Source: a virus
Lineage: Duplodnaviria > Heunggongvirae > Uroviricota > Caudoviricetes
Virus record (IMG/VR): IMGVR_UViG_651053022_000004
Coordinates: 14,440 to 78,439 of that record
Length of the DNA: 64,000 nucleotides
Strand: one strand, 5' to 3'
The position numbers were made by a program, and so were the translations under genes. Shown here in pieces: positions 11,204 through 64,000 of this stretch (positions are counted from its first letter, which is position 1; each line of letters opens with the position of its first letter). Below the pieces are notes generated by a model that did no database searches, had not been told where the DNA came from, and worked only from the letters and a program-made list of their open reading frames with translations.

Positions 11204-11619
11204 GTTTTGCCCTGAAACTGGCGCGTGAGATGGGGCGACCCGACTGGCGTGCCATGCTTGCCGGGATGTCATCCACGGAGTATGCCGACTGGCACCGCTT
11301 TTACAGTACCCATTATTTTCATGATGTTCTGCTGGATATGCACTTTTCCGGGCTGACGTACACCGTGCTCAGCCTGTTTTTCAGCGATCCGGATATGCAT
11401 CCGCTGGATTTCAGTCTGCTGAACCGGCGCGAGGCTGACGAAGAGCCTGAAGATGATGTGCTGATGCAGAAAGCGGCAGGGCTTGCCGGAGGTGTCCGCT
11501 TTGGCCCGGACGGGAATGAAGTTATCCCCGCTTCCCCGGATGTGGCGGACATGACGGAGGATGACGTAATGCTGATGACAGTATCAGAAGGGATCGCAGG
11601 AGGAGTCCGGTATGGCTGA
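11185..11619 (+). CDS. T: tail assembly protein T segment, expressed as a G-T fusion by -1 frameshift
   Basis: Slippery heptamer GGGAAAG at 11179-11185 near the 3' end of G; the -1 frame continues ...LSFALKLAREMGRPDWRAMLAGMSSTEYADWHRFY as in lambda gpGT. Confidence 0.88.
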   Translation: MFDGELSFALKLAREMGRPDWRAMLAGMSSTEYADWHRFYSTHYFHDVLLDMHFSGLTYTVLSLFFSDPDMHPLDFSLLNRREADEEPEDDVLMQKAAGLAGGVRFGPDGNEVIPASPDVADMTEDDVMLMTVSEGIAGGVRYG

Positions 11620-25520: not shown

Positions 25521-27197
25521 ATGTGGAACCTTTTACGGCGAACCCGAAAAAACCAGAAATCAGGACGTGACGTAAGAGAGGCGGGCTGGACCAGCCTGTT
25601 TCAGGCGGTGGCTGAGCCCTTTTCCGGCGCCTGGCAGCAGGGCGTGAAAGCCGATCCTGAAGCCGTCCTCTCCTTTCATGCGGTGTTTGCATGTATTTCG
25701 CTGATATCCCGGGATATCGCCAAAATGCGGCTGCGTCTTATGCAGACGGATGCGCATGGGATACGCAGGGAAACGCGCCGGGGGGATATTGCCCGCCTCT
25801 GTCGTCGTCCCAACGCCCAGCAGAACCGCATCCAGTTTTTTGAACTGTGGCTGAACGCCAAACTGCGTCATGGCAATACGGTGGTGCTGAAAATCCGTAA
25901 TGCCCGGGGGCAGATCAAAGAACTGCGTATTCTGGACTGGAGCCGGGTTGAACCTCTGGTGGCGGATGACGGCGAGGTGTTCTACCGCATCACGCCGGAC
26001 CGGAACTGCGGGATCACGGAGGCGGTGACGGTGCCTGCCCGGGAAGTGATCCACGACCGGTTTAACTGTTTTTTTCATCCGCTTATAGGATTGCCGCCGG
26101 TGTATGCCGCCGGGCTGGCGGCCACGCAGGGGCATCATATTCAGGAAAATTCGACGTCTTTTTTCAGAAATGGCGGCAGGCCGTCCGGGGTGATTGAGAT
26201 CCCCGGCAGTATTACGGAAGAAAATGCGAAAAAACTGAAGAGCAACTGGGACAGCGGGTATACAGGCGAAAATGCGGGGAAAACGGCCATTCTGAGCAAC
26301 GGGGCAAAATACAACCCCACGACGTTTTCACCTGTGGATGCGCAGACGGTGGAACAACTGAAGATGACCGCTGAAATTGTCTGTTCGGTGTTCCGTGTCC
26401 CGGCCTACAAGATTGGCGTGGGACAACCGCCTTCCAGTGACAACGTGGAGGCGCTGGAGCAGCAGTATTATTCCCAGTGCCTGCAGACGCTGATTGAGTC
26501 CATTGAACTGTTACTGGATGAGGCGCTGGAAACGGGGGAAAACGAGAGTACAGAATTTGATGTCACCACGCTGCTGAGAATGGACAGTGAGCGGCGCATG
26601 AAAACGCTGGGGGATGCGGTGAAAAATACGCTTCTCACGCCCAATGAGGCCCGTAAACGGGAGAACCTGCCGCCCCTGGCCGGCGGTGATGCACTGTATC
26701 TTCAGCAGCAGAACTACAGTCTGGAGGCGCTGTCCCGTCGTGATGCCCGTGAGGATCCGTTCGCGTCTGCCGGGAAAACAGTTTCATCACAGCTGCCTGA
26801 CGGCGCATCTGACGGTAATAAGGCAATCAGTGAAACAGAGCATGATGCGGTGAAAGCGATGTTCAGGGGGGATACTGAGAAAATGACGGAACGGGAACTG
26901 TCCATTATTCGTGCACTGGGAGAAGAATTCTCCACAGTGCTGGCGGATTTACAGCGCACATTTGAGGGGAAGATGGCCTCGCAGGCACAAGCGTTTGAAG
27001 AGAAACTGACTTCCCTGTCGGCGGTATTACAGAAGCATGTGACGGTGGATGAGGTGCGTCCGGTTCTGCAGGCGATGGTGGATGACGCTGTGGGGGCCAT
27101 TCCGGTACCGCGTGATGGTCGTGATTATGATCCGGATGTACTGCAGCATGGTGAAGGAGGCTGTAAGCCATATCCCTGTTCCGCGCGACGGTCGTGA
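25521..27197 (+). CDS. portal protein (HK97 family) with C-terminal repeat extension; frame breaks inside the repeat array
   Basis: 558 aa; core is alignable by eye to the module-3 portal (FRNGGRPSGVIEIPG vs FFNGNARPAGIISVKN, PVDAQ motif); the C-terminal IPVPRDGRDYDPDV repeats continue in another frame (27049 ORF). Confidence 0.75.
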   Translation: MWNLLRRTRKNQKSGRDVREAGWTSLFQAVAEPFSGAWQQGVKADPEAVLSFHAVFACISLISRDIAKMRLRLMQTDAHGIRRETRRGDIARLCRRPNAQQNRIQFFELWLNAKLRHGNTVVLKIRNARGQIKELRILDWSRVEPLVADDGEVFYRITPDRNCGITEAVTVPAREVIHDRFNCFFHPLIGLPPVYAAGLAATQGHHIQENSTSFFRNGGRPSGVIEIPGSITEENAKKLKSNWDSGYTGENAGKTAILSNGAKYNPTTFSPVDAQTVEQLKMTAEIVCSVFRVPAYKIGVGQPPSSDNVEALEQQYYSQCLQTLIESIELLLDEALETGENESTEFDVTTLLRMDSERRMKTLGDAVKNTLLTPNEARKRENLPPLAGGDALYLQQQNYSLEALSRRDAREDPFASAGKTVSSQLPDGASDGNKAISETEHDAVKAMFRGDTEKMTERELSIIRALGEEFSTVLADLQRTFEGKMASQAQAFEEKLTSLSAVLQKHVTVDEVRPVLQAMVDDAVGAIPVPRDGRDYDPDVLQHGEGGCKPYPCSARRS

Positions 27198-27480
27198 CTA
27201 TGATCCCGATGTTCTGCAGAAGGCGGTGAATGATGCGGTCGCAAATATTCCGCAGCCGGCGGACGGTAAAAGTCTCACCCCGGATGATGTGCGTCCGATG
27301 CTTGAACAGATGGTGAAGGAGGCTGTAAGCCATATCCCTGTTCCGCGTGATGGTCGTGACTACGATCCGGAAGTAGATGTGCGTCCGATGCTTGAACAGA
27401 TGGTGAAGGAGGCGGTAAGCCATATTCATGTTCCGCGTGATGGTCGTGACTACGATCCGGATGTTCTGCAGAAGGCGGTT
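27040..27480 (+). repeat. coding tandem repeat array (unit ~90 bp, motif IPVPRDGRDYDP[DE]V x4)
   Basis: gatgtgcgtccgatgcttgaacagatggtgaaggaggc...ccgcgtgatggtcgtgactacgatccgga repeated with period 90 bp (27286 and 27376) plus degenerate copies from 27049. Confidence 0.85.
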
Positions 27481-51735: not shown

Positions 51736-52069
51736 GCCTGAAGTTTTTAACTGGATCCCCCGTGAGGGGATGGAGACGACACGAAAGCCATCAGTTATTA
51801 CGGTAAAGTTTGGTGACGGATATGAACAGAGACGGGCTGGTGGTCTGAATGCGGATCTGAAAACGTTTAAACCGGTATTTCGTGTCACAGATGAATATTC
51901 CCGTGCCGCGCTGGACAGTTTTTTATCCCGTCATGCCGGGATTCGTGCTTTTTTGTGGCGTCCGCCAAAACACAACAGGACTGTCCGGGTTGTCTGCAGG
52001 GAGTGGAGCATTTCGGATAATGCCATGTATACCGATTTTAACTGTACCTTTGAAGAGGTCACTCACTGA
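51728..52069 (+). CDS. minor tail protein M-like
   Basis: 113 aa from GTG 51728 overlapping the TMP stop, by analogy with 34172. Confidence 0.85.
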   Translation: MPEPEVFNWIPREGMETTRKPSVITVKFGDGYEQRRAGGLNADLKTFKPVFRVTDEYSRAALDSFLSRHAGIRAFLWRPPKHNRTVRVVCREWSISDNAMYTDFNCTFEEVTH

Positions 52070-52758
52070 TGCAGGATATACAGCAGGAAACACTCAATGA
52101 GTGCACTAAAACGGAGCAATCCGCGCTGATCGTGCTCTGGGAAATTGATCTGACAGAGGTCGGCGGAGATCGTTATTTCTTCTGTAATGAGCAGAACGAA
52201 AAAGGTGAACCGGTCACCTGGCAGGGGCGGCAGTATCAGGCATACCCCATTCAGGGGACGGGATTTGAACTGAACGGTAAGGGCAGTGCTGCCCGTCCGA
52301 CACTGACGGTCTCTAACCTGCACGGCATGGTCACCGGGATGGCGGAAGACCTGCAGAGTCTGGTCGGCGGAACGGTGGTCAGGCGTAAGGTTTACGCCCG
52401 TTTTCTGGATGCGGTGAACTTCGTCAACGGAAACAGTGACGCCGACCCGGAGCAGGAGGTGATCAGCCGCTGGCGCATCGAGCAGTGCAGCGAACTGAGT
52501 GCGGTCAGTGCTTCTTTTGTACTGTCCACGCCGACGGAAACGGATGGTGCGGTTTTTCCGGGGCGCATCATGCTGGCCAACACCTGTACCTGGACCTATC
52601 GCGGTGATGAGTGCGGTTATAGCGGTCCGGCTGTCGCGGATGAATAGACGTCCGATATCACGAAAGATAAATGCAGCAAATGCCTGAGTGGCTGTAAGTT
52701 TCGCAATAACGTCGGCAACTTTGGCGGCTACCTTTCCATCAACAAACTTTCGCAGTAA
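52069..52758 (+). pseudogene. minor tail protein L-like, frameshifted near codon 191
   Basis: Lambda-L-like to ...GYSGPAVADE then stop; compared with 15061-15090 an 11-bp stretch (tgaccagccaa) is missing; the remaining L C-terminus (TSDITKDKCSKCLSGCKFRNNVGNFGG) is in another frame. Confidence 0.8.
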
Positions 52759-52763
52759 ATCCC

Positions 52764-53482
52764 ATGACAGAGACAGAATCAGCGATTCTGGCGCACGCCC
52801 GGCGATGTGCGCCAGCGGAGTCGTGCGGCTTCGTGGTGAGAACGCCGGAGGGGGAAAGATATTTCCCCTGCGTGAATATCTCCGGTGAGCCGGAAGATTA
52901 TTTCCGGATGTCGCCGGAGGACTGGCTGCAGGCCAAAATGCAGGGTGAGATTGTGGCGCTGGTCCACAGTCACCCCGGTGGTCTGCCCTGGCTGAGTGAG
53001 GCTGACAGGCGGCTGCAGGTGCAGAGCGATTTGCCGTGGTGGCTGGTCTGCCGGGGTGAGATTCATAAATTCCGCTGTGTGCCGCATCTTACCGGGCGGT
53101 GCTTTGAGCACGGGGTGACGGACTGTTACACGCTGTTCTTGAGATGCCGGATTTTCATCGCGGGGATGACTGGTGGCGTCACGGTCAGAATCTCTATCTG
53201 GATAATCTGGAGGCCACAGGGCTGTATCAGGTGCCGTTGTCATCAGCACAACCGGGCGATGTGCTGCTGTGCTGCTTTGGTTCATCGGTGCCGAATCATG
53301 CCGCCATTTACTGCGGCGACGGCGAGCTGCTGCACCATATTCCTGAACAACTGAGCAAACGAGAGAGGTATACCGACAAATGGCAGCGACGCACACACTC
53401 CCTCTGGCGTCACCGGGCATGGCACGCATCTGCCTTTACGGGGATTTGCAACGATTTGGCCACCGCATCGACCTTCGTGTGA
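52764..53482 (+). pseudogene. tail tip protein K-like, frameshifted by a small deletion at the position where the first K copy is truncated
   Basis: N-part reads to ...DCYTLF (53137), then cttgag joins directly to atgccggattttcatcg; the C-part (53144..53482, MPDFHRGDDWW...TGICNDLATASTFV) is lambda-K-like in another frame. Confidence 0.8.
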
Positions 53483-54027
53483 AAACGGGAGCCGAAGCTA
53501 TCCGGGCGCTGGCCACGCAGCTCCCGGCGTTTCGTCAGAAACTGAATGAGGGCTGGTATCAGGTGCGCATTGCCGGGCGTGATGCAGGCGAAAACGAATT
53601 ATCTGCCCGTCTTAATGAGCCGCTGGCAAATGGTGCCGTGATCCACATCGTGCCGCGTCTGGCGGGAGCTAAAAGTGGCGGTGTGTTTCAGGTGGTGCTG
53701 GGGGCGGCGCTGATTGCGGTGGCATGGTGGAACCCTGTGGGCTGGCTGGGTGCCGCGGCTGTATCGGGCATGTATGCGGCAGGGGCCAGTATGATCCTGG
53801 GTGGTGTGGCCCAGATGCTGGCACCGAAAGCCCGGACGCCCACAGCGACCAGCACGGATAACGGTAAGCAGAACACCTATTTCTCATCACTGGATAACAT
53901 GGTTGCCCAGGGCAATGTTCTGCCTGTTCTGTACGGTGAAATGCGCGTGGGGTCTCGTGTGGTTTCTCAGGAGATCAGCACGGCAGATGAAGGGGACGGT
54001 GGTCAGGTTGTGGTGATTGGCCGCTGA
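53380..54027 (+). CDS. I: tail assembly protein I
   Basis: 215 aa MAATHTLPLASPGMARICLYGDLQRFG...; matches lambda gpI start and C-terminus. Confidence 0.85.
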   Translation: MAATHTLPLASPGMARICLYGDLQRFGHRIDLRVKTGAEAIRALATQLPAFRQKLNEGWYQVRIAGRDAGENELSARLNEPLANGAVIHIVPRLAGAKSGGVFQVVLGAALIAVAWWNPVGWLGAAAVSGMYAAGASMILGGVAQMLAPKARTPTATSTDNGKQNTYFSSLDNMVAQGNVLPVLYGEMRVGSRVVSQEISTADEGDGGQVVVIGR

Positions 54028-54087
54028 TGCAAAATATTTCATGTGAAACCGCCTCCGGGCGGTTTTGTCGTTTATGGAGCATGACGA

Positions 54088-54232
54088 ATGGGCAAAGGAA
54101 GCAGTAAGGGGCATACCCCGCGCGAAGCGAAGGACAACCTGAAATCCACGCAATTACTGAGTGTGATCGATGCCATCAGCGAAGGGCCGATTGAAGGTCC
54201 GGTGGATGGATTAAAAAGCGTGCTGCTGGCGC
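54088..54232 (+). pseudogene. J 5' fragment (first ~48 codons), left copy of a 799-bp tandem duplication
   Basis: MGKGSSKGHTPREAKDNLKSTQLLSVIDAISEGPIEGPVDGLKSVLL then runs into a second copy of the K-end/I-start sequence. Confidence 0.7.
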
Positions 54233-54826
54233 ATCTGCCTTTACGGGGATTTACAACGATTTGGCCGCCGCATCGACCTTCGTGTGAAAACGGGGGCTGA
54301 AGCCATCCGGGCGCTGGCCACACAGCTCCCGGCGTTTCGTCAGAAACTGAGCGACGGCTGGTATCAGGTACGGATTGCCGGGCGTGATACAGGTGAAACG
54401 GAATTATCAGCCCGTCTTAATGAACCGCTGGCAAATGGTGCTGTGATCCATATCGTGCCGCGTCTGGCAGGAGCCAAAAGTGGCGGTGTGTTTCAGGCTG
54501 TGCTGGGGGCGGCTGTTATGGCGGTTGCTATATGGATGCCGGGGGTAGGAATTATGGCGAGTAATCTGCTGTTTTCTCTCGGTGCCAGTATGACGCTTGG
54601 CGGTGTTGCACAGATGCTGGCCCCTAAACCCAGAACCCCCCGCACACAGACAACGGATAACGGCAAACAGAACACCTATTTTTCTTCACTGGATAATATG
54701 GTTGCCCAGGGCAATGTTCTGCCCGTTCTGTACGGTGAAATGCGCGTGGGATCACGTGTGGTATCTCAGGAGATCAGCACAGCAGATGAAGGTGATGGTG
54801 GTCAGGTTGTGGTGATTGGTCGCTGA
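54233..54826 (+). pseudogene. I, 5'-truncated second copy
   Basis: Begins with the duplicated K 3' end (YNDLAAAS...), then an I sequence lacking its first ~17 codons; diverges from the 53380 copy in the hydrophobic middle. Confidence 0.7.
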
Positions 54827-54886
54827 TGAAAAACGTTTTATGTGAAACCGCCTCCGGGCGGTTTTATCGTTTATGGAGCATGACGA

Positions 54887-57800
54887 ATGGGTAAAGGCAG
54901 CAGTAAGGGGCATACCCCGCGCGAAGCGAAGGACAACCTGAAGTCCACGCAGCTGCTGAGTGTGATCGATGCCATCAGCGAAGGGCCGGTTGAAGGTCCG
55001 GTGGATGGATTAAAAAGCGTGCTGCTGAACAGTACACCGGTGCTGGACAGTGAGGGGAATACCAACATCTCCGGTGTTACGGTGGTGTTCCGGGCAGGTG
55101 AGCAGGAGCAGACACCGCCGGAGGGATTTGAATCCTCCGGTTCCGAGACGGTGCTGGGTACGGAAGTGAAATACGACACGCCGATCACCCGCACCATCAC
55201 GTCGGCAAACATCGACCGTCTGCGCTTTACGCCGGTGCTGGACAGTGAGGGGAATACCAATATATCCGGCGTCACGGTGGTGTTCCGGGCCGGTGAGCAG
55301 GAGCAGTCACCGCCGGAGGGATTTGAATCCTCCGGCTCCGAGACGGTGCTGGGTACGGAAGTGAAATATGACACGCCGATCACCCGGACCATCACGTCGG
55401 CAAACATCGACCGTCTGCGCTTTACCTTCGGTGTACAGGCACTGGTGGAAACCACCTCAAAGGGAGACAGGAATCCGTCGGAAGTTCGCCTGCTGGTTCA
55501 GATACAGCGTAACGGTGGCTGGGTGACGGAAAAAGACATCACCATTAAGGGCAAAACCACCTCGCAGTATCTGGCCTCGGTGGTGGTGGATAACCTGCCG
55601 CCGCGCCCGTTTAATATCCGGATGCGCAGGATGACGCCGGACAGCACCACAGACCAGCTGCTGAACAAAACGCTCTGGTCGTCATACACCGAAATCATCG
55701 ATGTGAAACAGTGCTACCCGAACACGGCACTGGTTGGCGTGCAGGTGGACTCGGAGCAGTTCGGCAGCCAGCAGGTGAGTCGTAATTATCATCTTCGCGG
55801 GCGCATTCTGCAGGTGCCGTCGAACTATAACCCGCAGACGCGGCAATACAGCGGTATCTGGGACGGAACGTTAAAACCGGCATACAGCAACAACATGGCC
55901 TGGTGTCTGTGGGATATGCTGACCCATCCGCGCTACGGCATGGGAAAACGTCTTGGTGCGGCAGATGTGGATAAATGGGCGCTGTATGTCATCGGCCAGT
56001 ACTGCGACCAGTCGGTGCCGGACGGCTTTGGCGGCACGGAGCCGCGCATTACCTGTAATGCGTACCTGACCACACAGCGCAAGGCGTGGGATGTGCTCAG
56101 TGATTTCTGCTCGGCGATGCGCTGTATGCCGGTATGGAACGGGCAGACGCTGACGTTCGTGCAGGACCGACCATCAGATAAGGTGTGGACCTATAACCGC
56201 AGTAATGTGGTGATGCCGGAGCCGTCGGATAATGTGTGGACCTATAACCGCAGTAATGTGGTGATGCCGGATGATGGCGCGCCGTTCCGCTACAGCTTCA
56301 GCGCCCTGAAGGACCGCCATAATGCCGTTGAGGTGAACTGGATTGACCCGGATAACGGCTGGGAGACGGCGACAGAGCTCGTGGAGGATACGCAGGCCAT
56401 TGCCCGTTACGGCCGTAACGTCACGAAGATGGATGCCTTTGGCTGTACCAGCCGGGGCTGACCCGGATAACGGCTGGGAAACGGCAACAGAGCTTGTGGA
56501 GGACACGCAGGCCATTGCCCGTTATGGTCGTAATGTCACGAAGATGGATGCCTTTGGCTGTACCAGCCGGGGGCAGGCACACCGCGCCGGGCTGTGGCTG
56601 ATTAAAACGGAGCTGCTGGAAACGCAGACCGTGGACTTCAGCGTGGGCGGTGGTCGTGTGCTGGCGGTGAGCAGCCAGACCCGGACGCTGACGCTCGACC
56701 GTGAAATCACGCTGCCATCCTCCGGCACCACGCTGATAAGCCTGGTTGACGGAAGTGGCAATCCGGTCAGCGTGCAGGTCCAGTCCGTCACCGACGGCGT
56801 GAAGGTGAAAGTGAGCCGGGTTCCTGACGGCGTTGCAGAATACAGCGTGTGGGGGCTGAAGTTGCCGACGTTGCGCCAGCGCCTGTTCCGCTGTGTGAGT
56901 ATCCGTGAGAACGACGACGGCACGTATGCCATCACCGCCGTGCAGCATGTTCCTGACGGTGTTGCTGAATACAGCGTATGGGGGCTGAAGCTGCCGACGC
57001 TGCGCCAGCGACTGTTCCGCTGCGTGAGTATCCGTGAAAACGACGACGGCACGTATGCCATCACCGCCGTGCAGCATGTACCGGAAAAAGAAGCCATCGT
57101 GGATAACGGGGCGCACTTTGACGGCGACCAGAGCGGCACGGTGAATGGTGTCACGCCGCCAGCGGTGCAGCACCTGGCCGCAGAAGTCACTGCAGACAGC
57201 GGGGAATATCAGGTGCTGGCGCGATGGGACACACCGAAGGTGGTGAAGGGCGTGAGCTTCCTGCTCCGTCTGACCGTAACAGCGGACGACGGCAGTGAGC
57301 GGCTGGTCAGCACGGCCCGGACGACGCCGGAAAAAGAGACCATCGTGGATAACGGGGCGCACTTTGACGGCGAACAGAGTGGCACGGTGAATGGTGTCAC
57401 GCCGCCCGCGGTGCAGCACCTGACCGCAGAAGTCACCGCAGACAGCGGGGAATATCAGGTGCTGGCGCGATGGGACACACCGAAGGTGGTGAAGGGGGTG
57501 AGCTTTATGCTTCGCCTGACCGTGGCAGCGGATGACGGCAGTGAGCGGCTGGTCAGCACGGCCAGGACGACGGAAACCACATACCGCTTCAGGCAACTGG
57601 CGCTGGGGAACTACAGGCTGACAGTCCGGGCGGTAAATGCGTGGGGGCAGCAGGGGGATCCGGCGTCGGTATCGTTCCGGATTGCCGCACCGGCAGCGCC
57701 ATCGCGGATTGAGCTGACGCCGGGCTATTTTCAGATAACCGCAACGCCACATCTTGCCGTTTATGACCCGACGGTACAGTTTGAGTTCTGGTTCTCGGAA

Positions 57801-58847
57801 AAGCGGATTGCGGATATCAGGCAGGTTGAAACCGCAGCCCGCTATCTTGGCTCGGCGCTGTACTGGATAGCTGCCAGTATCAATATCAAACCGGGCCATG
57901 ATTATTATTTTATCCGCAGTGTGAATACTGTTGGCAAATCGGCATTCGTGGAGGCTGTCGGTCGGGCGAGCGATGATGCGGAAGGTTACCTGGATTTTTT
58001 CAAAGGAGAAATCGGGAAAACACATCTGGCCCAGGAGCTGTGGACGCAGATTGATAACGGTCAGCTTGCGCCGGACCTGGCTGAAATCAGGACGTCCATT
58101 ACGAATGTCAGCAATGAAATCACGCAGACCGTCAATAAAAAACTGGAAAATCAGAGTGCGGCAATCCAGCAGATACAGAAAGTTCAGGTTGATACAAATA
58201 ATAACCTGAACAGCATGTGGGCCGTGAAACTGCAGCAGATGCAGGACGGACGCCTTTATATTGCGGGTATCGGTGCCGGTATTGAGAATACGCCAGCAGG
58301 AATGCAGAGTCAGGTGCTGCTGGCGGCAGACAGGATTGCGATGATTAATCCTGCGAATGGCAACACAAAGCCGATGTTTGTTGGTCAGGGCGATCAGATA
58401 TTTATGAATGAAGTGTTCCTGAAATATCTGACGGCTCCCACCATTACCAGCGGCGGTAATCCTCCGGCATTTTCCCTGACACCGGACGGGCGGCTGACGG
58501 CGAAAAATGCCGATATCAGCGGTAACGTGAATGCGAACTCCGGGACGCTCAACAACGTCACGATTAACGAGAACTGCCGGGTTCTGGGAAAACTGTCCGC
58601 GAACCAGATTGAAGGCGATCTCGTTAAAACAGTGGGCAAAGCTTTCCCCCGTGACTCCCGGGCACCGGAGCGGTGGCCATCAGGGACCATTACCGTCAGG
58701 GTTTATGACGATCAGCCGTTTGACCGGCAAATTGTTATTCCGGCTGTGGCATTCAGTGGCGCTAAGCATGAGAGAGAGCATACTGATATTTACTCCTCAT
58801 GCCGTCTGATAGTGTTATTGATATGCCTGCCGGTCACGGTCACATGA
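54887..58847 (+). pseudogene. J: host specificity protein J, disrupted by several imperfect tandem duplications and a frameshift
   Basis: Lambda-J-like throughout; in-frame duplications of 198, 51, 129 and 246 bp and an out-of-frame 116-bp duplication (56344-56575) that creates a stop at 56459-56461; the frame resumes in ORF 56343..58847. Confidence 0.8.
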
Positions 58848-59239
58848 CACTGGAGTTTTCGGTGTCAGCATGGCTGGTAAATAACTGGTATCCCACAGCA
58901 AGTATCAGCGATTTGCTGGTTGCGTTATTGATATGCCTGCCGGTCACGGTCACATGACGCTGGAGTTTTCGGTGTCAGCATGGCTGGTAAATGGCTGGTA
59001 TCCCACAGCAAGTATCAGCGATTTGCTGGTTGGATTGTTATTCCGGCGGTGGCATTCAGCGGCGCTAAACATGAGAAAGAGCATACTGATATTTACTCCT
59101 CATGCCGTCTGATAGTGCGGAAAAACGGTGCTGAAATTTATAACCGTACCGCGCTGGATAATACGCTGATTTACAGTGGTGGTGATGAAGAAAGCCACTG
59201 CAGGCATCACGATTAGCTGAATTTTATAACCCAGATACG

Positions 59240-59263
59240 GGCACCAGAAATGGTGCCTTTTTT
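59240..59263 (+). terminator. hairpin ggcacc-agaaat-ggtgcc plus T-run after the J 3' fragments
   Basis: Read directly from the sequence; identical structure at 61110-61133. Confidence 0.55.
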
Positions 59264-59287
59264 ATTGCAGAAAAGCGAGAGGTAATT

Positions 59288-59887
59288 ATGCGTAAATTAT
59301 GTGCTGTTATTCTATCCGCAGTAGTCTGGCTGGTTGCCGCTGGTACGCCAGCGAGCGCAGCAGAGCATCAGTCCACACTAAGCGCCGGGTATCTTCAGAC
59401 CCATACTGATATGCCAGGCAGTGATGACCTGAAGGGCATTAACGTGAAATACCGTTATGAATTTACGGACACGCTGGGGCTGGTGACGTCATTCAGTTAT
59501 GCCAATGCCAAAGATGAGCAAAAAACGCATTACAGCGATACCCGCTGGCATGAAGATTCAGTGCGTAACCGCTGGTTCAGCATGATGGCGGGGCCATCTG
59601 TACGCGTGAATGAATGGTTCAGTGCTTATGCGATGGCAGGTGTGGCTTACAGCCGTGTTTCGACGTTCTCCGGGGATTATCTCCGCGTAACTGACAACAA
59701 GGGGAAAACGCACGATGTGCTGACCGGAAGTGATGACGATCGCCACAGCAACACGTCTCTGGCGTGGGGAGCTGGCGTGCAGTTTAACCCGACCGAATCC
59801 GTGGCCATTGATATTGCTTATGAAGGCTCCGGCAGTGGCGACTGGCGCACTGACGGTTTCATCGTGGGTGTCGGTTATAAGTTCTGA
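59288..59887 (+). CDS. lom: outer membrane protein Lom (Ail/Lom family)
   Basis: 199 aa; signal peptide MRKLCAVILSAVVWLVAAGTPASA; C-terminus DIAYEGSGSGDWRTDGFIVGVGYKF as in lambda Lom; RBS GAGAGG. Confidence 0.9.
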   Translation: MRKLCAVILSAVVWLVAAGTPASAAEHQSTLSAGYLQTHTDMPGSDDLKGINVKYRYEFTDTLGLVTSFSYANAKDEQKTHYSDTRWHEDSVRNRWFSMMAGPSVRVNEWFSAYAMAGVAYSRVSTFSGDYLRVTDNKGKTHDVLTGSDDDRHSNTSLAWGAGVQFNPTESVAIDIAYEGSGSGDWRTDGFIVGVGYKF

Positions 59888-59913
59888 TTAGCCAGGTAAC
59901 ACAGTGTTATGAC

Positions 59914-59941
59914 AGCCCGCCGGTTCAGGCGGGCTTTTTTG
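59914..59941 (+). terminator. hairpin agcccgcc-ggttca-ggcgggct plus T6 after lom
   Basis: Perfect 8-bp stem read directly from the sequence. Confidence 0.6.
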
Positions 59942-59974
59942 TGCACAGAAAACCCCCAGCTAGGCTGGGGGTTC

Positions 59975-61090
59975 CGCATTCGCAGTGTGAACACCGTTGG
60001 CAAATCGGCATTTGTGGAGGCTGTTGGCCAGCCGAGTGATGATGCATCCGGCTATCTGGATTTTTTCAAAGGAGAGATAGGGAAAACCCATCTGGCTCAG
60101 GAGTTGTGGACGCAGATTGATAACGGTCAGCTTGCGCCTGACCTGGCTGAAATCAGGACGTCCATTACGGATGTCAGCAATGAAATCACGCAGACCGTCA
60201 ATAAGAAACTGGAAGACCAGAGTGCAGCGATCCAGCAGATACAGAAGGTTCAGGTTGATACAAATAATAACCTGAACAGCATGTGGGCTGTGAAGCTGCA
60301 GCAGATGCAGGACGGACGCCTTTATATCGCGGGTATTGGTGCCGGTATTGAGAATACCCCTGACGGTATGCAGAGTCAGGTGCTGCTGGCGGCGGACAGG
60401 ATTGCGATGATTAATCCTGCGAATGGCAATACAAAGCCGATGTTTGTTGGGCAGGGCGATCAGATATTCATGAACGAAGTGTTCCTGAAATATCTGACGG
60501 CTCCCACCATTACTGGCAATCCCCCAACGTTTTCACTGACACCTGATGGTCGACTTTCTGCGAGAAATGCGGATATCAGCGGTAACGTGAATGCGAACTC
60601 CGGGACGCTCAATAATGTCACGATTAACCAGAACTGTCGGATTCTGGGAAAACTGTCAGCTAACCAGATTGAAGGTGATATTGTCAAAACGGTGGGAAAA
60701 GCCTTTCCGAGAAATGGCAGTTATGCCAGCGGTACAATAACGGTCACTGTGTACGATGACCAGGCTTTTGACCGTCAGATAGTCGTCCCCCCCGTTCTGT
60801 TTCGCGGTGGTAAGCATGAAAACTTCAACAGCAACAACCAACAGTCATACTGGTATTCAACCTGTAAGCTGCAGGTGCTGAAGAACGGACAGGAAATCTT
60901 TCAGCAACCCGCGACGGATGTCAGCAGGGTATTTTCATCAGTCATTGATATGCCTGCCGGACACGGCCATGTCACCCTGACTTTCAATGTTTCTTCATAT
61001 GGTGCAAATAACTGGACGCCAACGACCAGTATCAGCGACCTTCTTGTTGTCGTGATGAAGAAATCAACAGCCGGCATCAGTATCAGTTGA
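59975..61090 (+). other. orphan J C-terminal (receptor-binding) cassette without its own start or RBS
   Basis: From ~59980 the sequence is about 95% identical to J nt ~57905-58640 ([16 protein letters not shown]...[20 protein letters not shown]), then has a distinct, complete C-terminus ending ...[11 protein letters not shown]-stop; preceded by two hairpins. Confidence 0.75.
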
Positions 61091-61109
61091 ATTTTAAAAC
61101 CCAAATTCG

Positions 61110-61133
61110 GGCACCAGAAATGGTGCCTTTTTT
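61110..61133 (+). terminator. hairpin ggcacc-agaaat-ggtgcc plus T-run after the J cassette
   Basis: Same element as 59240-59263. Confidence 0.55.
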
Positions 61134-61148
61134 ATTTGTGGAGTGAAT

Positions 61149-63419
61149 ATGGCAGTACAGATTTCAGGTGTGCTGAAAGACGGTGCAGGAAAACCGATAC
61201 AGAACTGCACCATTCAGCTCAAAGCAAAACGTAACAGCACCACAGTTGTGGTGAACACGGTGGCCTCAGAAAATCCGGATGAAGCCGGACGTTACAGCAT
61301 GGATGTCACCGTGTATGAGGATTCTAAGCCGGGGACATTGAATGATTTTCTGGGCGCTGCAACAGAAGATGATGTTTGTCCGGAGGCACTGTATCGTTTT
61401 GAAAAGATGGTGGAAGAGGCGGCACGCAACGCTGAAGCCGCCTCTCAGAGCGCAGCGGCGGCAAAGAAATCCGAAACTGCAGCGGCATCATCGAAGAACG
61501 CGGCGAAAACCTCAGAAACGAATGCAGCTAACAGCGCACAGGCGGCAGCGACCTCAAAGACTGCATCGGCAAACTCCGCGACAGCAGCCAAAAAATCAGA
61601 AACCAACGCGAAAAATAGCGAGACAGCCGCAAAGACGAGCGAAACCAACGCAAAGTCCAGCCAGACGGCAGCGAAAACCAGCGAAACGAATGCCAAAGCC
61701 AGTGAAACTGCGGCAAAAAACAGCCAGGTTGCAGCAGCCCAAAGCGAGAGCGCGGCAGCCGGTTCTGCGACTTCAGCAGCTGGATCAGCAACTGCTGCGG
61801 CTAACAGCCGGAAAGCTGCGAAGACGAGTGAAACTAACGCAAAGTCCAGCCAGACGGCAGCGAAGACCAGCGAAACGAATGCCAAAGCCAGCGAAACTGC
61901 GGCGAAAAACAGTCAGGATGCAGCAGCCCAAAGCGAGAGTGCTGCAGCTGGTTCTGCAAGCGCGGCGGCTGCTTCTGCCACTGCATCAGCCAACAGTCAA
62001 AAAGCAGCAAAAACCAGTGAAACCAATGCAAAGACAAGCGAGACTGCAGCGGCGAACTCGGCGAAAGCATCCGCTGCAAGCCAGACCGCTGCAAAAGCAA
62101 GTGAAGACGCAGCCAGAGAGTATGCAAGCCAGGCAGCAGATCCGTATAAATATGTCTTACAGCCGCTGCCTGATGTGTGGATACCGTTTAACGATTCACT
62201 GGATATGATTACGGGTTTTTCGCCATCTTATAAAAAGATAGTTATTGGTGACGATGAAATAACAATGCCAGGCGACAAGATTGTTAAGTTTAAACGTGCT
62301 TCAACAGCAACGTATATTAATAAGTCCGGCCAACTCAAGCTTGCTGAAGTTGACGAACCGCGATTTGAGCGCGATGGCTTATTGATTGAAGGACAGAGGA
62401 CAAATTATCTGAGGAACTCAAATAAACCAGACTCATGGACTGTTCATTCCGCACTGAATAAAACATTTGGCACTGATAAACAGGGGTTCAATTATGCCAC
62501 GGTGACACCCACGGAAAGTATAGTGGGAACAACAGGTGGCTATACTGTGCATGGTGTGGTTGCAGCAGACAGATTCCCGCTGGCAAGTGGTGAATGTTTC
62601 ACTTTTTCGTGCCGGGTTAAAGGCGCTAAAGCACGATGCAGGTTAAGAGTTTCAGTTATTATTGGTGGAACAGATACCTTCTCTGCTGACTCTTATCTTG
62701 ATCTGGATACCCGGATCGCAACAGTAAGCGGTAATACATCCCTTATAACAGCCAAAGCTGAACAACAGGGCGAGTGGACCTACTATGAGGCCACTTATAC
62801 AGCTAATACGGACATTGATACCGTTAACTGTGCTTTTTATATGACAAATAAAATAAGTAATGAGACATTCTATGATGACTCAACATTAACCATGACGACG
62901 CCGCAAATTGAACTGGGCAATACGGCATCGTCATTTATTGTAACTACAATGCCAACAACACGCGCAAGTGATGTAGTTACTATCCCATCGCAGAATAACC
63001 TGTCAACACGGCCTTTTACGGTATTGTGCGAAGTAAGCAGGAACTGGAGTACACCGCCCAATGTTGCGCCAAGGATATTTGATGTTGGAGGGCACAGTAT
63101 TGATGATAATTATTTATCGCTGGGGTTTGTTGCAACAGGAAAGATAAGCGCCAACGTAGGAATGGTTCAGCCACAAATTGCCTCAGATGGAGAAAGGTTC
63201 ATTGTGGGTGTGAGAGCTAAATCTGATTTATCAGTAAATGCAATATGCAATGGTAATTATACAACAAACCTTAATGGTAAAATATTTGGAGTTACAGCAA
63301 CATCGTACCGGTTTGGTGGGCAGACCGCAGCAGGAACGCGTCATTTGTTTGGACACATCAGAAATTTCAGAGTCTGGTTTAAAGAATTAAATGACAGGCA
63401 AATCAAGGAGGCAGTATGA
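61149..63419 (+). CDS. stf: side tail fiber protein with Ala/Ser/Thr-rich internal repeats and a distinct C-terminal domain
   Basis: ATG 61149 after GGAG; N-terminus MAVQISGVLKDGAGKPIQNCTIQLKAKRNSTTVVVNTV is lambda Stf-like; 63-aa imperfect repeat AAKTSETNAKSSQTAAKTSETNAKASETAAKNSQ x2; C-terminal ~420 aa unlike lambda Stf. Confidence 0.85.
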   Translation: MAVQISGVLKDGAGKPIQNCTIQLKAKRNSTTVVVNTVASENPDEAGRYSMDVTVYEDSKPGTLNDFLGAATEDDVCPEALYRFEKMVEEAARNAEAASQSAAAAKKSETAAASSKNAAKTSETNAANSAQAAATSKTASANSATAAKKSETNAKNSETAAKTSETNAKSSQTAAKTSETNAKASETAAKNSQVAAAQSESAAAGSATSAAGSATAAANSRKAAKTSETNAKSSQTAAKTSETNAKASETAAKNSQDAAAQSESAAAGSASAAAASATASANSQKAAKTSETNAKTSETAAANSAKASAASQTAAKASEDAAREYASQAADPYKYVLQPLPDVWIPFNDSLDMITGFSPSYKKIVIGDDEITMPGDKIVKFKRASTATYINKSGQLKLAEVDEPRFERDGLLIEGQRTNYLRNSNKPDSWTVHSALNKTFGTDKQGFNYATVTPTESIVGTTGGYTVHGVVAADRFPLASGECFTFSCRVKGAKARCRLRVSVIIGGTDTFSADSYLDLDTRIATVSGNTSLITAKAEQQGEWTYYEATYTANTDIDTVNCAFYMTNKISNETFYDDSTLTMTTPQIELGNTASSFIVTTMPTTRASDVVTIPSQNNLSTRPFTVLCEVSRNWSTPPNVAPRIFDVGGHSIDDNYLSLGFVATGKISANVGMVQPQIASDGERFIVGVRAKSDLSVNAICNGNYTTNLNGKIFGVTATSYRFGGQTAAGTRHLFGHIRNFRVWFKELNDRQIKEAV

Positions 63420-63694
63420 AAGATTTAACTTTGAAATTTCCTGGTAACAGAGAGTTTAAATCCTTCCTGTCATCTCTTGACTGGGAGGAGGATGAAGACC
63501 TCCAGAATAAACTGTTAGTCGATGAAATTGGTTTCACCTACACAGAAACAGGGGTAACAGAAGAGGGAGAACCTGTCTGTGTCCGGAATGACGGTTATTT
63601 TGTCAACATTCGCATTCTTGATGACTTGTTTGATGTTTCTGTATTCTCTGATTATGTCGTGGAGCTGGAAACACCGCTTCGGGAATGGAGCTGA
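63416..63694 (+). CDS. hypothetical acidic protein downstream of stf, in the place of tfa
   Basis: 92 aa MKDLTLKFPGNREFKSFLSSLDWEEDEDLQNKLLVDEIGF...; start overlaps the stf stop; no Tfa-like motifs. Confidence 0.4.
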   Translation: MKDLTLKFPGNREFKSFLSSLDWEEDEDLQNKLLVDEIGFTYTETGVTEEGEPVCVRNDGYFVNIRILDDLFDVSVFSDYVVELETPLREWS

Positions 63695-63706
63695 AAGGAG
63701 GAAATA

Positions 63707-64000
63707 ATGGATATAAGCCCCTTACTTCATGCACTTTGTGCTGTGGCTGCGCAAACACTGGTTGGTCTTTTTACCGGAAACTGGGCTTACGGAGCGATAG
63801 CCGGTTGTACGTTCTTCATTGCGCGTGAACATACCCAGGCAGAATATCGCTGGATTGAAATGTTCGGGCATGGCAAGCGAATGAATATGCCGTGGTGGGG
63901 CGGTTTTGATCCGCGAGCTTGGGATGTGGCAAGCCTGATGGATTTTGCTGTGCCGGTGGTGGCGTGTCTGCTGGTCTGGCTGTTGGTTAATCGTGGGTGA
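63707..64000 (+). CDS. hypothetical membrane protein
   Basis: 97 aa with two hydrophobic segments (LHALCAVAAQTLVGLF and FAVPVVACLLVWLLV); RBS AGGAGG upstream; stop at the window end. Confidence 0.4.
   Translation: MDISPLLHALCAVAAQTLVGLFTGNWAYGAIAGCTFFIAREHTQAEYRWIEMFGHGKRMNMPWWGGFDPRAWDVASLMDFAVPVVACLLVWLLVNRG

What the first reader, a model, noticed from the sequence alone, without database searches (positions are those of the whole stretch)
61149..64000. Side tail fiber with lambda-like N-terminus, internal 189-bp repeats and a non-lambda C-terminal domain, followed by two small ORFs in place of tfa
The N-terminal ~60 aa resemble lambda Stf but lack the segment after RYSMDV. The C-terminal ~420 aa (ending FGHIRNFRVWFKELNDRQIKEAV) has a beta-rich, lectin-like composition, not the Gly-rich lambda Stf tip. 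Downstream are an acidic 92-aa protein and a 97-aa membrane protein, with no recognisable tail fiber assembly chaperone. This may be a different receptor specificity with an uncharacterised accessory pair.
Basis: partly seen in the sequence, partly recalled or inferred. Interest (0 to 1): 0.5.

Follow-up and report, generated by a model that had tools for sequence, protein, structure and literature searches.

The report
Phage-21-type lectin-tipped side tail fibre module
This is the end of a lambda-like prophage tail operon: a side tail fibre with a sugar-binding (lectin-like) tip, a small acidic partner protein that follows this kind of tip in nearly every locus examined, and a small membrane protein often found next to phage receptor-binding genes. 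The arrangement is already present in phage 21 and many E. coli prophages, so it is ordinary as a sequence, but nobody has tested what it does.

Summary
The stf gene runs 61149-63419 (756 aa). It has a lambda-type N-terminus lacking 22 residues after RYSMDV, and an Ala/Ser-rich shaft of 35 heptads containing a 189-bp (9-heptad) repeat. Its 426-aa all-beta C-terminal module has no lambda counterpart. It is followed by an acidic 92-aa ORF and a 97-aa membrane ORF, and no recognisable Tfa.

The arrangement is not new. It is the stf module of phage 21, PhiR47_2 and the sitABCD prophage of E. coli ST131 (PHROG 1419/1361/1443).

The tip models confidently (pLDDT 92) as a neck, a jelly roll like the RcGTA head-spike fibre (CBM-like), and a ConA/LamG lectin domain. 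It is most likely a polysaccharide-binding adhesin.

A 92-aa-family ORF follows 169 of 171 genes carrying this tip, including distant Aeromonas-phage-like loci. I read it as a dedicated fibre partner, probably an assembly factor, from an unannotated family with no structural match to known chaperones.

The 97-aa protein is not specific to this fibre. It lies directly after fibre, tailspike, Tfa or J genes in at least five unrelated phage types.

This particular allele is a unique three-segment mosaic of two ST131 prophage stf genes plus a 66-bp deletion. It sits next to a scrambled J gene, so it may be defective or an assembly chimera.

The parts
61109..61136 (+). Terminator-like hairpin plus T-run between the J-type fragment and stf
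   Evidence: GGGCACCAGAAATGGTGCC followed by TTTTTTATTT. The same site is found by the scan in PhiR47_2 and is annotated as a terminator in phage 21. A second copy lies at 59239-59266 after the first J fragment (family D11).
61149..63419 (+). stf, side tail fibre gene (756 aa plus stop); three-segment mosaic allele
   Evidence: ORF. PHROG 1419 'tail protein', 1201 bits over residues 55-758. Annotated 'side tail fiber' in phage 21 and PhiR47_2. Mosaic: 61000-~61440 is PhiR47_2 type, 61419-62215 has 0 mismatches to the second prophage of EC958, and 62162-64000 is PhiR47_2 type with 2 mismatches.
61149..61412 (+). Lambda-type N-terminal tail-attachment domain (PF08400) with a 66-bp (22-aa) in-frame deletion at 61306/61307
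   Evidence: Pfam PF08400 E 1e-46 in two stretches. Alignment A1. DNA comparison. The junction was not seen in complete E. coli genomes: all listed 100%-identity matches are split into two pieces spanning 338 bp against the 272-bp query. It is absent from IMG/VR and JGI metagenome contigs.
61413..62147 (+). Shaft: 35 uninterrupted heptads [T/S]-A-A-[K/A]-x-S-[E/Q/A] (aa 89-333), taken to be a trimeric Ala-rich coiled coil
   Evidence: Ala autocorrelation is 0.45 at lag 7. Ala frequency is 69% and 89% at heptad positions 2 and 3, and Ser/Thr 91% at position 6. Composition: A 89, S 44, T 28, K 25 of 248 residues. The trimeric state is inferred by analogy with lambda Stf.
61575..62051 (+). 189-bp tandem repeat (63 aa = 9 heptads), 2 full copies plus a partial third; nested 21/42-bp periodicity
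   Evidence: TRF, the repeat finder D7, protein copies aa 143-205 and 206-268. 99.6% identical to the stf shaft of a second ST131 prophage.
62139..62381 (+). Conserved beta 'neck' of the C-terminal module (PLPDVWIPFNDSL ... NEPRFE)
   Evidence: AF2 strands 13-89 of the model. This is the most conserved block of the family: mean column conservation 0.47-0.73; near-invariant P9, P11, D12, V13, W14, E73, P74, R75, F76, E77.
62382..62966 (+). Jelly-roll domain like the RcGTA head-spike fibre (CBM4/9-like); hypervariable core
   Evidence: NCBIfam NF048003 GTA_spike_fiber, E 9.3e-18, 65.4 bits against a cutoff of 36, residues 414-608 of the 758-aa form. Pfam CBM_4_9 E 1e-4, below the cutoff. Conservation 0.20-0.37.
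62967..63416 (+). C-terminal ConA-like / LamG lectin domain ending RHLFGHIRNFRVWFKELNDRQIKEAV
63416..63694 (+). 92-aa acidic cytoplasmic protein (PHROG 1361): conserved partner gene of the lectin-type fibre tip
63707..64000 (+). 97-aa small membrane protein (PHROG 1443) with the invariant loop motif REHTQAEYRW...GKR.NMPWWGGFD.R.W
   Evidence: Hydropathy. AGGAGG Shine-Dalgarno site. 586 clusters in Escherichia, Salmonella, Citrobacter, Leclercia, Enterobacter, Aeromonas and Comamonas. Alignment A4 invariants: H8, R40, E41, Q44, E46, Y47, R48, G56, G66, F67, W72, D79, P83. No Pfam or PDB match.

Best explanation
The region is the distal end of a lambdoid late (tail) operon of the phage-21 / ST131-sitABCD-prophage type.

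stf encodes a side tail fibre with three parts:
- A lambda-type N-terminal domain that docks the fibre on the tail tip.
- A long Ala/Ser-rich heptad coiled-coil shaft. Its length changes in steps of 63 aa (9 heptads, 189 bp), which keeps the coiled-coil register.
- A C-terminal module of three beta parts: a conserved neck, a hypervariable jelly roll homologous to the capsule-binding head-spike fibre of the Rhodobacter gene transfer agent, and a hypervariable ConA/LamG lectin domain.

The tip most likely binds a surface polysaccharide (LPS O-antigen or core, or capsule) to give reversible first-contact adsorption, while J does the irreversible binding. This is inferred.

The 92-aa acidic protein is translationally coupled to stf and is inherited with this tip domain in nearly every locus examined. 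It is therefore most likely a dedicated fibre accessory, either an assembly or folding factor or a tip-bound subunit. It would do the job Tfa does for lambda, but it belongs to a different, unannotated family. This is inferred.

The 97-aa membrane protein is a separate cassette that travels at the 3' end of receptor-binding gene clusters in many phage types. It probably acts on the host envelope, for example by receptor masking, exclusion, or protecting progeny from debris. This is a low-confidence inference.

The allele in this window is a recombinant: the shaft of one ST131 prophage sits inside the stf of another. It also carries a 22-aa deletion in the docking domain and lies next to a disrupted J gene. 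As written, it is probably not part of a working tail, or it is an assembly chimera.
For: Shown:
- Gene order and identity with phage 21, PhiR47_2 and the ST131 prophage.
- PF08400 N-terminus.
- Heptad periodicity of the shaft and the 9-heptad repeat.
- GTA_spike_fiber domain above NCBIfam's cutoff.
- Laminin_G_3 hits in 35/60 homologues.
- The tip domain lies at the extreme C-terminus in 59/60 representatives. It is fused to different anchors: lambda Stf N-terminus, P2 fibre N-terminus, Tail_spike_N, collagen.
- Conserved scaffold blocks alternate with hypervariable cores.
- The RcGTA head-spike fibre binds capsular polysaccharide (PMC10218006).
- 92-aa family: ATGA overlap and Shine-Dalgarno site; 83/83 and 77/79 E. 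coli loci; homologues after distant tip genes (E about 1e-17); 242/243 family hits lie directly after a tip gene and 169/171 tip genes are followed by one; four clusters below 50% identity.
- 97-aa family: found directly after the tailspike in JEP4 and phiv142-3, after Tfa in phiHAP-1, between tailspikes in a Salmonella contig, after J in a Comamonas prophage, and after the P2-type fibre in Aeromonas and Leclercia prophages.
- Mosaic structure and deletion.
Against: - No experiment bears on any of the three proteins, and no paper on their function was found.
- The receptor is unknown.
- The 92-aa fold resembles no solved chaperone. The link to the most distant (Aeromonas-type) small proteins rests on iterative search and position: direct hhalign gives E 0.004 but only 8% probability.
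- The RcGTA head-spike fibre was made functional in E. coli without a partner, so the jelly roll alone may not need a chaperone.
- Synteny can also reflect inheritance of a cassette without physical interaction.
- The loci counted are redundant: many near-identical E. coli prophages, and some contigs were fetched twice.
- 97-aa protein: one copy sits in an apparently non-phage chromosomal context in Aeromonas and one next to toxin-antitoxin/Fic genes. Its topology is ambiguous and no own promoter was found above chance.
- A ConA-like fold also occurs in glucanases and lyases, so enzymatic activity is not excluded.
Confidence: 0.6

Rival explanations
1. The allele in this window is not a biological entity of its own. 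It is an assembly chimera, or a decaying pseudogene, made from two co-resident lambdoid prophages. The mosaic shaft and the missing 22 residues then say nothing about function.
For: - The crossovers lie inside identical stretches of only 41 bp (61419-61459) and 54 bp (62162-62215) shared by the two parental stf genes. Both parents occur in the same ST131 genomes, for example strain 4/0.
- No complete E. coli genome has 80% or more of 61143-64000 colinear.
- The exact protein is not on record among 153 billion gene positions. The deletion junction is absent from IMG/VR and JGI contigs.
- The adjacent J gene is scrambled by imperfect tandem duplications of 50-246 nt at 90-95% identity, some out of frame, plus a second J C-terminal copy after lom.
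- The nearest genomes cover 52000-64000 in 19 pieces, over 9.3 kb instead of 12 kb.
Against: - The reading frame of stf is intact across both crossovers and across the deletion (66 bp = 22 codons), which chance mis-joins do not guarantee.
- Recombination between prophage tail-fibre genes is common and natural.
- Window 15001-39068 is colinear at 99% with real chromosomes, so the contig is not chimeric throughout.
- The raw reads are not available, so this cannot be decided here.
Confidence: 0.4
2. Both small ORFs are 'morons': lysogenic-conversion, exclusion or anti-defence genes that merely occupy the usual cargo slot after the fibre genes. They have no role in fibre assembly.
For: - The slot after the fibre or tailspike genes is a classic cargo position (from my own knowledge: gtrABC/oac after the P22/Sf6 tailspike, Z/fun after P2 G, cor in phi80/N15). 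In this prophage family sitABCD follows immediately.
- The 97-aa gene sits between the tailspike and int in JEP4. It is 93-99% conserved regardless of which fibre tip precedes it.
- The 92-aa protein is small and very acidic, like DNA-mimic anti-restriction proteins.
- Neither resembles a known chaperone.
Against: - For the 92-aa gene: near-obligate adjacency to one specific fibre domain across four clusters below 50% identity and across different phage backbones. This is not how cargo genes behave.
- Both genes have start/stop coupling to the late operon. No own promoter or terminator was found above chance.
- No PADLOC hit.
Confidence: 0.25
3. The C-terminal module is an enzyme (glycan depolymerase, lyase or esterase) rather than a pure lectin, as in tailspikes.
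For: - Several polar residues are invariant across 60 divergent homologues: R75, E84, T88, N89, Q256, E258, S265, R275. This is more typical of a catalytic or metal site than of a variable receptor surface.
Against: - No glycoside-hydrolase, lyase or esterase family is hit in Pfam or NCBIfam.
- The invariant residues lie in the strands that open and close the jelly roll and in the neck, so a structural role fits.
- The characterised relative (RcGTA head-spike fibre) is described as a binder.
Confidence: 0.12

Closest known systems
Side tail fibre region of Escherichia phage 21 (OL657228: CPT_21_22/23/24) and of PhiR47_2 / the sitABCD-carrying prophage of E. coli ST131
   Same: Same gene order: J - terminator - stf - 92 aa - 97 aa (- sitDCBA). 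The N-terminus, the tip from residue ~395 onward and both small ORFs are 99-100% identical to PhiR47_2. The phage 21 tip is 41-43% identical, its 92-aa protein 93% and its 97-aa protein 99%.
   Different: The window's shaft (about 750 bp, with the 189-bp repeats) comes from a different prophage's stf. The N-terminal domain lacks 22 aa. The resulting protein (756 aa, against 673 and 686) is not on record.
Bacteriophage lambda Stf/Tfa (Ur-lambda side tail fibres, OmpC-binding)
   Same: Position after J, PF08400 N-terminal domain, Ala/Ser-rich 'SETNA' heptad shaft, a small gene directly 3' of stf.
   Different: No Gly-rich T4-gp37-like tip and no Tfa (Caudo_TAP) homologue. The tip is a lectin-type beta module, so the receptor is expected to be a glycan rather than OmpC.
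Rhodobacter capsulatus GTA head-spike fibre (rcc01080; NCBIfam NF048003)
   Same: The middle jelly-roll domain is homologous (E 9e-18). It is a beta-rich, lectin-like protein that binds capsular polysaccharide.
   Different: In RcGTA it is a head appendage anchored by 10 N-terminal residues on a pentameric base. No 92-aa partner is described for it; whether one is encoded there was not examined here.
Tail fibre assembly chaperones (lambda Tfa, Mu U/TfaMu, P2 G, T4 gp38)
   Same: The 92-aa gene has the same genomic logic: immediately 3' of the fibre gene, translationally coupled, and inherited together with the fibre's C-terminal domain.
   Different: No sequence or fold similarity. It is about half the size of Tfa. 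Its function is untested.
Branched or dual-fibre version of the same module (e.g. E. coli EC958 prophage: Stf792 - 93 aa - 234-aa Peptidase_S74-type fibre - 95 aa)
   Same: Same tip family (46% identity), same 92-aa family (50%), same 97-aa family (95%). This prophage is the donor of the window's shaft.
   Different: It has an extra short fibre gene between the two small ORFs. That is the commonest form in E. coli: 55 of 79 loci show all four genes with room to judge. The window has the three-gene form.

Membership tests
Lambda-type side tail fibre (Stf) | N-terminal 'prophage tail fibre N-terminal' domain (PF08400) | tested here: met
   E 1.1e-46, 158.6 bits against a cutoff of 26.6. The match is split: 22 residues of the domain are deleted, so the domain may not fold.
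Lambda-type side tail fibre (Stf) | Gene located after J (and lom) at the end of the late tail operon | tested here: met
   J-type ORFs, lom (59288-59887) and a second J fragment precede stf. Same order in lambda, phage 21 and PhiR47_2.
Lambda-type side tail fibre (Stf) | Gly-rich T4-gp37-like distal tip with a Tfa (Caudo_TAP) chaperone gene downstream | tested here: not met
   No alignment to lambda Stf beyond the shaft. No Tfa family hit for either downstream ORF in Pfam, NCBIfam or PHROGs.
Phage-21-type Stf (PHROG 1419) with PHROG 1361 and 1443 downstream | Full-length match to the family profile and the same two downstream families | tested here: met
   phrog_1419 1201.5 bits (residues 55-758 to profile 75-793); phrog_1361 E 1.6e-39; phrog_1443 E 7.8e-58. 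Synteny in 83/83 loci.
GTA head-spike fibre domain (NCBIfam NF048003) | Score above the curated cutoff over the whole domain | tested here: met
   65.4 bits against a cutoff of 36, profile positions 1-181 of 182.
GTA head-spike fibre domain (NCBIfam NF048003) | Binding of capsular or extracellular polysaccharide | not testable with these tools
   Shown only for the RcGTA protein (PMC10218006).
Concanavalin A-like lectin/glucanase (LamG, PF13385) | Sequence match above Pfam's gathering score | tested here: not met
   20.3 bits against 27.6 (E 6.5e-4) for the window protein. However, 35/60 homologues match, best E 1.9e-11.
Concanavalin A-like lectin/glucanase (LamG, PF13385) | ConA-like beta-sandwich fold | tested here: met
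Tail fibre assembly chaperones (Tfa / gp38 / U / G) - for the 92-aa protein | Sequence or fold similarity to a known chaperone family | tested here: not met
Tail fibre assembly chaperones (Tfa / gp38 / U / G) - for the 92-aa protein | Gene immediately 3' of the fibre gene and co-inherited with the fibre's C-terminal domain | tested here: met
   169/171 tip genes are followed by a family member; 242/243 family members lie in that position. ATGA overlap.
Tail fibre assembly chaperones (Tfa / gp38 / U / G) - for the 92-aa protein | Required for fibre folding or trimerisation; binds the fibre tip | not testable with these tools
   Needs genetics or biochemistry.
Superinfection-exclusion / lysogenic-conversion membrane proteins - for the 97-aa protein | Membrane location | tested here: inconclusive
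   Two clear hydrophobic segments. The phage 21 annotators report 2 TMDs. Topology is not resolved.
Superinfection-exclusion / lysogenic-conversion membrane proteins - for the 97-aa protein | Expression from the prophage and a protective or surface-altering phenotype | not tested
   No own promoter above chance. No expression or phenotype data found.

The most novel reading that the evidence does not exclude
The 92-aa protein would define a new, unannotated family of fibre accessory proteins, either assembly factors or tip subunits. The family would be obligately coupled to the lectin-type fibre tip (GTA-spike-fibre jelly roll plus LamG) in lambdoid, P2-like, Aeromonas and other phages. The 97-aa protein, with its invariant REH..E.R...WWGGFD loop, would be a conserved envelope-acting factor that phages of at least five unrelated architectures place directly after their receptor-binding genes, for example to mask or remodel a common glycan-assembly step so that lysogens or lysing cells do not trap particles.
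Probability: 0.35. Interest if true: 0.5.

Novelty: new member of a known kind. Interest (0 to 1): 0.3.

Why it matters
This fibre module is carried by a classical laboratory phage (phage 21) and by the sitABCD prophage of pandemic E. coli ST131, yet none of its three proteins has been tested.

If the tip is a glycan lectin whose hypervariable cores set strain specificity, it would be a ready-made swap-in receptor-binding domain for engineered lambda-based delivery particles. In that case the 92-aa gene would probably have to be moved together with it.

The 97-aa family is a conserved small membrane protein that follows receptor-binding genes in many phage types. Working out what it does could reveal a general way in which phages manage the host surface.

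Both ideas can be tested directly in phage 21.

Tried and rejected
- Sequence search of the tip against PDB chains: nothing.
- Profile search of the 97-aa family against PDB and Pfam, member by member: only sub-threshold noise (PhoR, B12D).
- PADLOC on all three proteins: nothing relevant.
- BFVD search of the 92-aa model: only uncharacterised small phage proteins.
- The first homologue search of the tip returned 120 near-identical E. coli sequences, which were useless for an alignment. I replaced it with the 50%-cluster representatives.
- Genome-contig scan for the 92-aa family: only Escherichia ruysiae plus a 2.8-kb 'Collinsella MAG' contig that looks like E. coli phage contamination.
- Promoter and terminator scan inside the module: not above the shuffled expectation.
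- Literature: no paper found on the function of the phage 21 Stf or the two ORFs. The phiv142-3 paper studied the neighbouring tail fibre (orf6), not the 97-aa homologue (orf5), and its supplement has no data on orf5.
- Idea that the two small ORFs co-vary with the tip as a pair: rejected, because the 97-aa protein stays 93-99% identical whatever the tip.
- Idea that the 92-aa protein is an adaptor for the second fibre: rejected, because it is kept in three-gene loci and in distant loci without that fibre.
- 3-D clustering of the invariant polar residues could not be examined, because model coordinates are not exposed.


Full report
**1. What is in the sequence**

The six-frame ORF list shows three consecutive plus-strand genes at the end of the window:
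- A 756-aa ORF from the ATG at 61149 to 63419 (758 aa if the GTG at 61143 is used).
- A 92-aa ORF at 63416-63694.
- A 97-aa ORF at 63707-64000, whose stop codon is the last base of the window.

The 92-aa ATG overlaps the stop of the large ORF (ATGA) and is preceded by AAGGAG. The 97-aa ATG is preceded by AGGAGG. A terminator-like hairpin (61109-61136) separates the large ORF from the preceding J-type fragment, and phage 21's annotators marked the same site.

- The N-terminus matches Pfam PF08400 (E 1e-46), but the match breaks after residue 56.
- Alignment with lambda, phage 21 and PhiR47_2 shows an in-frame loss of 22 residues after RYSMDV.
- TRF finds a 189-bp period at 61625-62051, 2.3 copies, 83% matches.
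- The last ~420 residues have no lambda counterpart.
- The 92-aa protein has pI 4.05, and the 97-aa protein has terminal hydrophobic segments.
- Neither small protein hits Pfam, NCBIfam or PADLOC.

**2. The arrangement is already in the databases**

Region 61143-64000 matches 4,698 E. coli records and 100 phage records. The same order, J - terminator - stf - 92 aa - 97 aa - sitDCBA (convergent), occurs in several places:
- Escherichia phage PhiR47_2.
- A prophage of ST131-type E. coli. There PGAP splits stf into 'prophage tail fiber N-terminal domain' and 'phage head spike fiber domain-containing protein'.
- Classical phage 21.

The three proteins belong to PHROGs 1419 (tail protein), 1361 and 1443 (both of unknown function). 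No paper dealing with their function was found.

**3. This allele is a private mosaic**

Base-by-base comparison gives three segments:
- 61000 to about 61440 is identical to PhiR47_2, apart from a 66-bp deletion at 61306/61307.
- 61419-62215 has no mismatch to the stf of a second ST131 prophage (EC958). This segment supplies the shaft with the 189-bp repeats and is 99.6% identical in hundreds of genomes.
- 62162-64000 is again PhiR47_2 type, with two mismatches.

The crossovers lie in shared identical stretches of 41 and 54 bp. Both parental genes occur in the same genomes.

The combination is not seen elsewhere:
- No complete E. coli genome has 80% or more of the region colinear.
- The exact protein is not on record.
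- The deletion junction is absent from IMG/VR and JGI metagenome contigs. In all listed best E. coli matches it appears as two pieces spanning 66 extra bases.

Immediately upstream, the J gene is scrambled. It carries imperfect tandem duplications of 50-246 nt at 90-95% identity, some out of frame, and a second copy of the J C-terminus follows lom. The nearest genomes cover 52000-64000 in 19 pieces over 9.3 kb.

The allele is therefore either a natural recombinant in a decaying prophage or an assembly chimera. The tools here cannot decide between these. The open frame across all three junctions argues mildly for a real recombinant.

**4. Anatomy of the fibre**

Shaft. Residues 89-333 form 35 uninterrupted heptads of the type [T/S]-A-A-[K/A]-x-S-[E/Q/A]. 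Ala autocorrelation is 0.45 at lag 7; Ala is 69% and 89% at heptad positions 2 and 3; Ser/Thr is 91% at position 6. The 189-bp repeat is exactly nine heptads, so gaining or losing a copy changes shaft length without breaking the register. I take this as the reason the repeat is tolerated, and as the source of the length differences among alleles (673, 686, 756 and 792 aa).

Tip. The C-terminal 426 residues were modelled with an alignment of 59 representatives at 24-53% identity. The model has pLDDT 92.2 and pTM 0.87 and is all-beta. The evidence on each part is:
- NCBIfam places a GTA_spike_fiber domain in the middle (E 9.3e-18, above the cutoff).
- Pfam on the isolated module gives sub-threshold CBM_4_9 and Laminin_G_3 hits, and 35 of 60 relatives match Laminin_G_3.

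The family is large: 1,392 representatives at E ≤ 1e-3. The domain sits at the extreme C-terminus in 59 of 60 cases. It is fused to various anchors: lambda Stf N-terminus, P2 fibre N-terminus, Tail_spike_N, collagen.

Conservation is confined to the neck (residues 1-100), the inter-domain strand (261-280) and the last strand and helix (401-426). The two sandwich cores are hypervariable.

The one characterised relative, the RcGTA head-spike fibre, binds capsular polysaccharide (PMC10218006).

My reading is a polysaccharide-binding adhesin whose variable cores set specificity. This is an inference; no receptor is known.

**5. The 92-aa protein**

- Direct homologues are confined to Escherichia and Shigella: 45 clusters, all 'hypothetical'.
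- In 83 of 83 loci retrieved with the 92-aa family, it starts at the stop of an stf with this tip.
- In 77 of 79 loci retrieved with the tip, it follows directly. One exception is a contig end and the other proved to have a homologue.
- Small ORFs after distant tip genes (76-94 aa, pI 4.0-4.4) are clear homologues (E about 1e-17).
- In a still more distant Aeromonas-phage-like group the next gene is again a small acidic protein (101-110 aa). It aligns end to end with the same motifs: D-L-x-L-K, G-Y-x-x-N-[IV]-R, T-P-x-x-x-W. hhalign gives E 0.004 at low probability.
- An iterative search over all 17,139 ORFs of the fetched loci converged on 243 members. Of these, 242 lie directly after a tip gene. 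Conversely, 169 of 171 tip genes with room downstream are followed by one.
- The members form 101 unique sequences and four clusters below 50% identity.

The protein therefore behaves genomically like a fibre-specific chaperone or partner, but it is not a member of any known chaperone family.

**6. The 97-aa protein**

This family is much wider: 586 clusters, up to 60% identical in Comamonas. It has a strikingly invariant loop, REHTQAEYRW...GKR.NMPWWGGFD.R.W, plus H8, D79 and P83.

It stays 93-99% identical whatever tip precedes it. It is absent from the distant loci that keep the tip and the 92-aa gene.

Its homologues lie directly after receptor-binding genes in many phage types:
- The tailspike of a P22-like phage (JEP4) and of an epsilon15-like phage (phiv142-3 Orf5).
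- The Tfa of phiHAP-1.
- Between two tailspikes in a Salmonella contig.
- The J gene of a Comamonas prophage.
- P2-type fibres in Aeromonas and Leclercia prophages.

Counting the window's own lambdoid type, that is 8 of the 11 distinct contexts examined. The exceptions are a chromosomal copy in Aeromonas rivipollensis, a copy next to toxin-antitoxin/Fic genes, and a stretch of unannotated ORFs in an Aeromonas phage.

It is thus an independent cassette associated with receptor-binding genes. That it acts on the envelope is a guess.

**7. Comparison and verdict**

The module works like a lambda Stf/Tfa pair in its layout: a docking domain, a coiled-coil shaft, a distal adhesin and a small coupled gene. 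It fails the membership features that concern the tip and the chaperone. It is a full member of the phage-21-type family.

- A different specificity is likely.
- The 'accessory pair' is really one dedicated partner plus one independent cassette.
- The arrangement is common, not special to this window.

As a sequence it is a new (mosaic, possibly defective or chimeric) member of a known kind. The modest interest lies in the two uncharacterised small protein families, which can be tested directly in phage 21.

Noticed in passing
window 54887-61090: The J (central tail fibre) gene of this prophage is scrambled. It carries imperfect tandem duplications at 55012-55401 (195 nt x2, 90%), 56171-56271, 56344-56572 (114 nt, spacing 115), 56820-57077, 57081-57572 (246 nt x2, 93%) and 58806-59025 (110 nt x2). 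After lom (59288-59887) there is a second copy of the last ~1.2 kb of J (59909-61090). This looks like unrolled allelic bubbles of an assembly graph, or a decaying prophage.
   Followed up: partly
window 1-64000: Three phage structural modules lie in a row, with large terminases near 1781, 21647 and 40525 and tape-measure genes at 11612, 30937 and 48502. Window 15001-39068 is colinear at 99% with natural E. coli chromosomes such as IPCEC48, so the first junction is natural. The junction near 39.1-40.0 kb, after a J gene truncated at 730 aa, was not covered.
   Followed up: partly
L005 8250-8954 (EC958); also L102, L121, L176 and others: In most E. coli loci a second short fibre gene sits between the 92-aa and 97-aa genes. 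It is either 234 aa with a Peptidase_S74-type self-cleaving C-terminal chaperone or about 360 aa. All versions share the first ~30 residues, which suggests a common docking site and a branched or dual side fibre.
   Followed up: partly
L001 8701-12150, L002, L004 (downstream of the window's end): In the closest relatives the fibre module is followed immediately by the convergent sitABCD iron/manganese transporter operon. The prophage sits next to an icd fragment, the attachment site of phage 21 and e14. The window stops one base short of showing whether sitABCD follows here.
   Followed up: no
L173 5001-5309 (Aeromonas rivipollensis chromosome): A 57%-identical homologue of the 97-aa membrane protein stands alone in an apparently non-phage context. 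It lies between a pirin gene and a RIO1 kinase gene, near two lipid A acyltransferase genes. This hints that the family also has a cellular role.
   Followed up: no
window 27051-27464: Four imperfect copies of an ~89-nt repeat lie inside a structural gene of the second module; in context it may be a repeated domain of a head or decoration protein. They are unrelated to the finding.
   Followed up: no
L008 (2.8-kb contig labelled as a Collinsella MAG): This contig carries an E. coli-type stf tip, the 92-aa gene, the 234-aa fibre gene and the 97-aa gene at 51-96% identity. It is almost certainly a mis-binned Escherichia phage contig.
   Followed up: no
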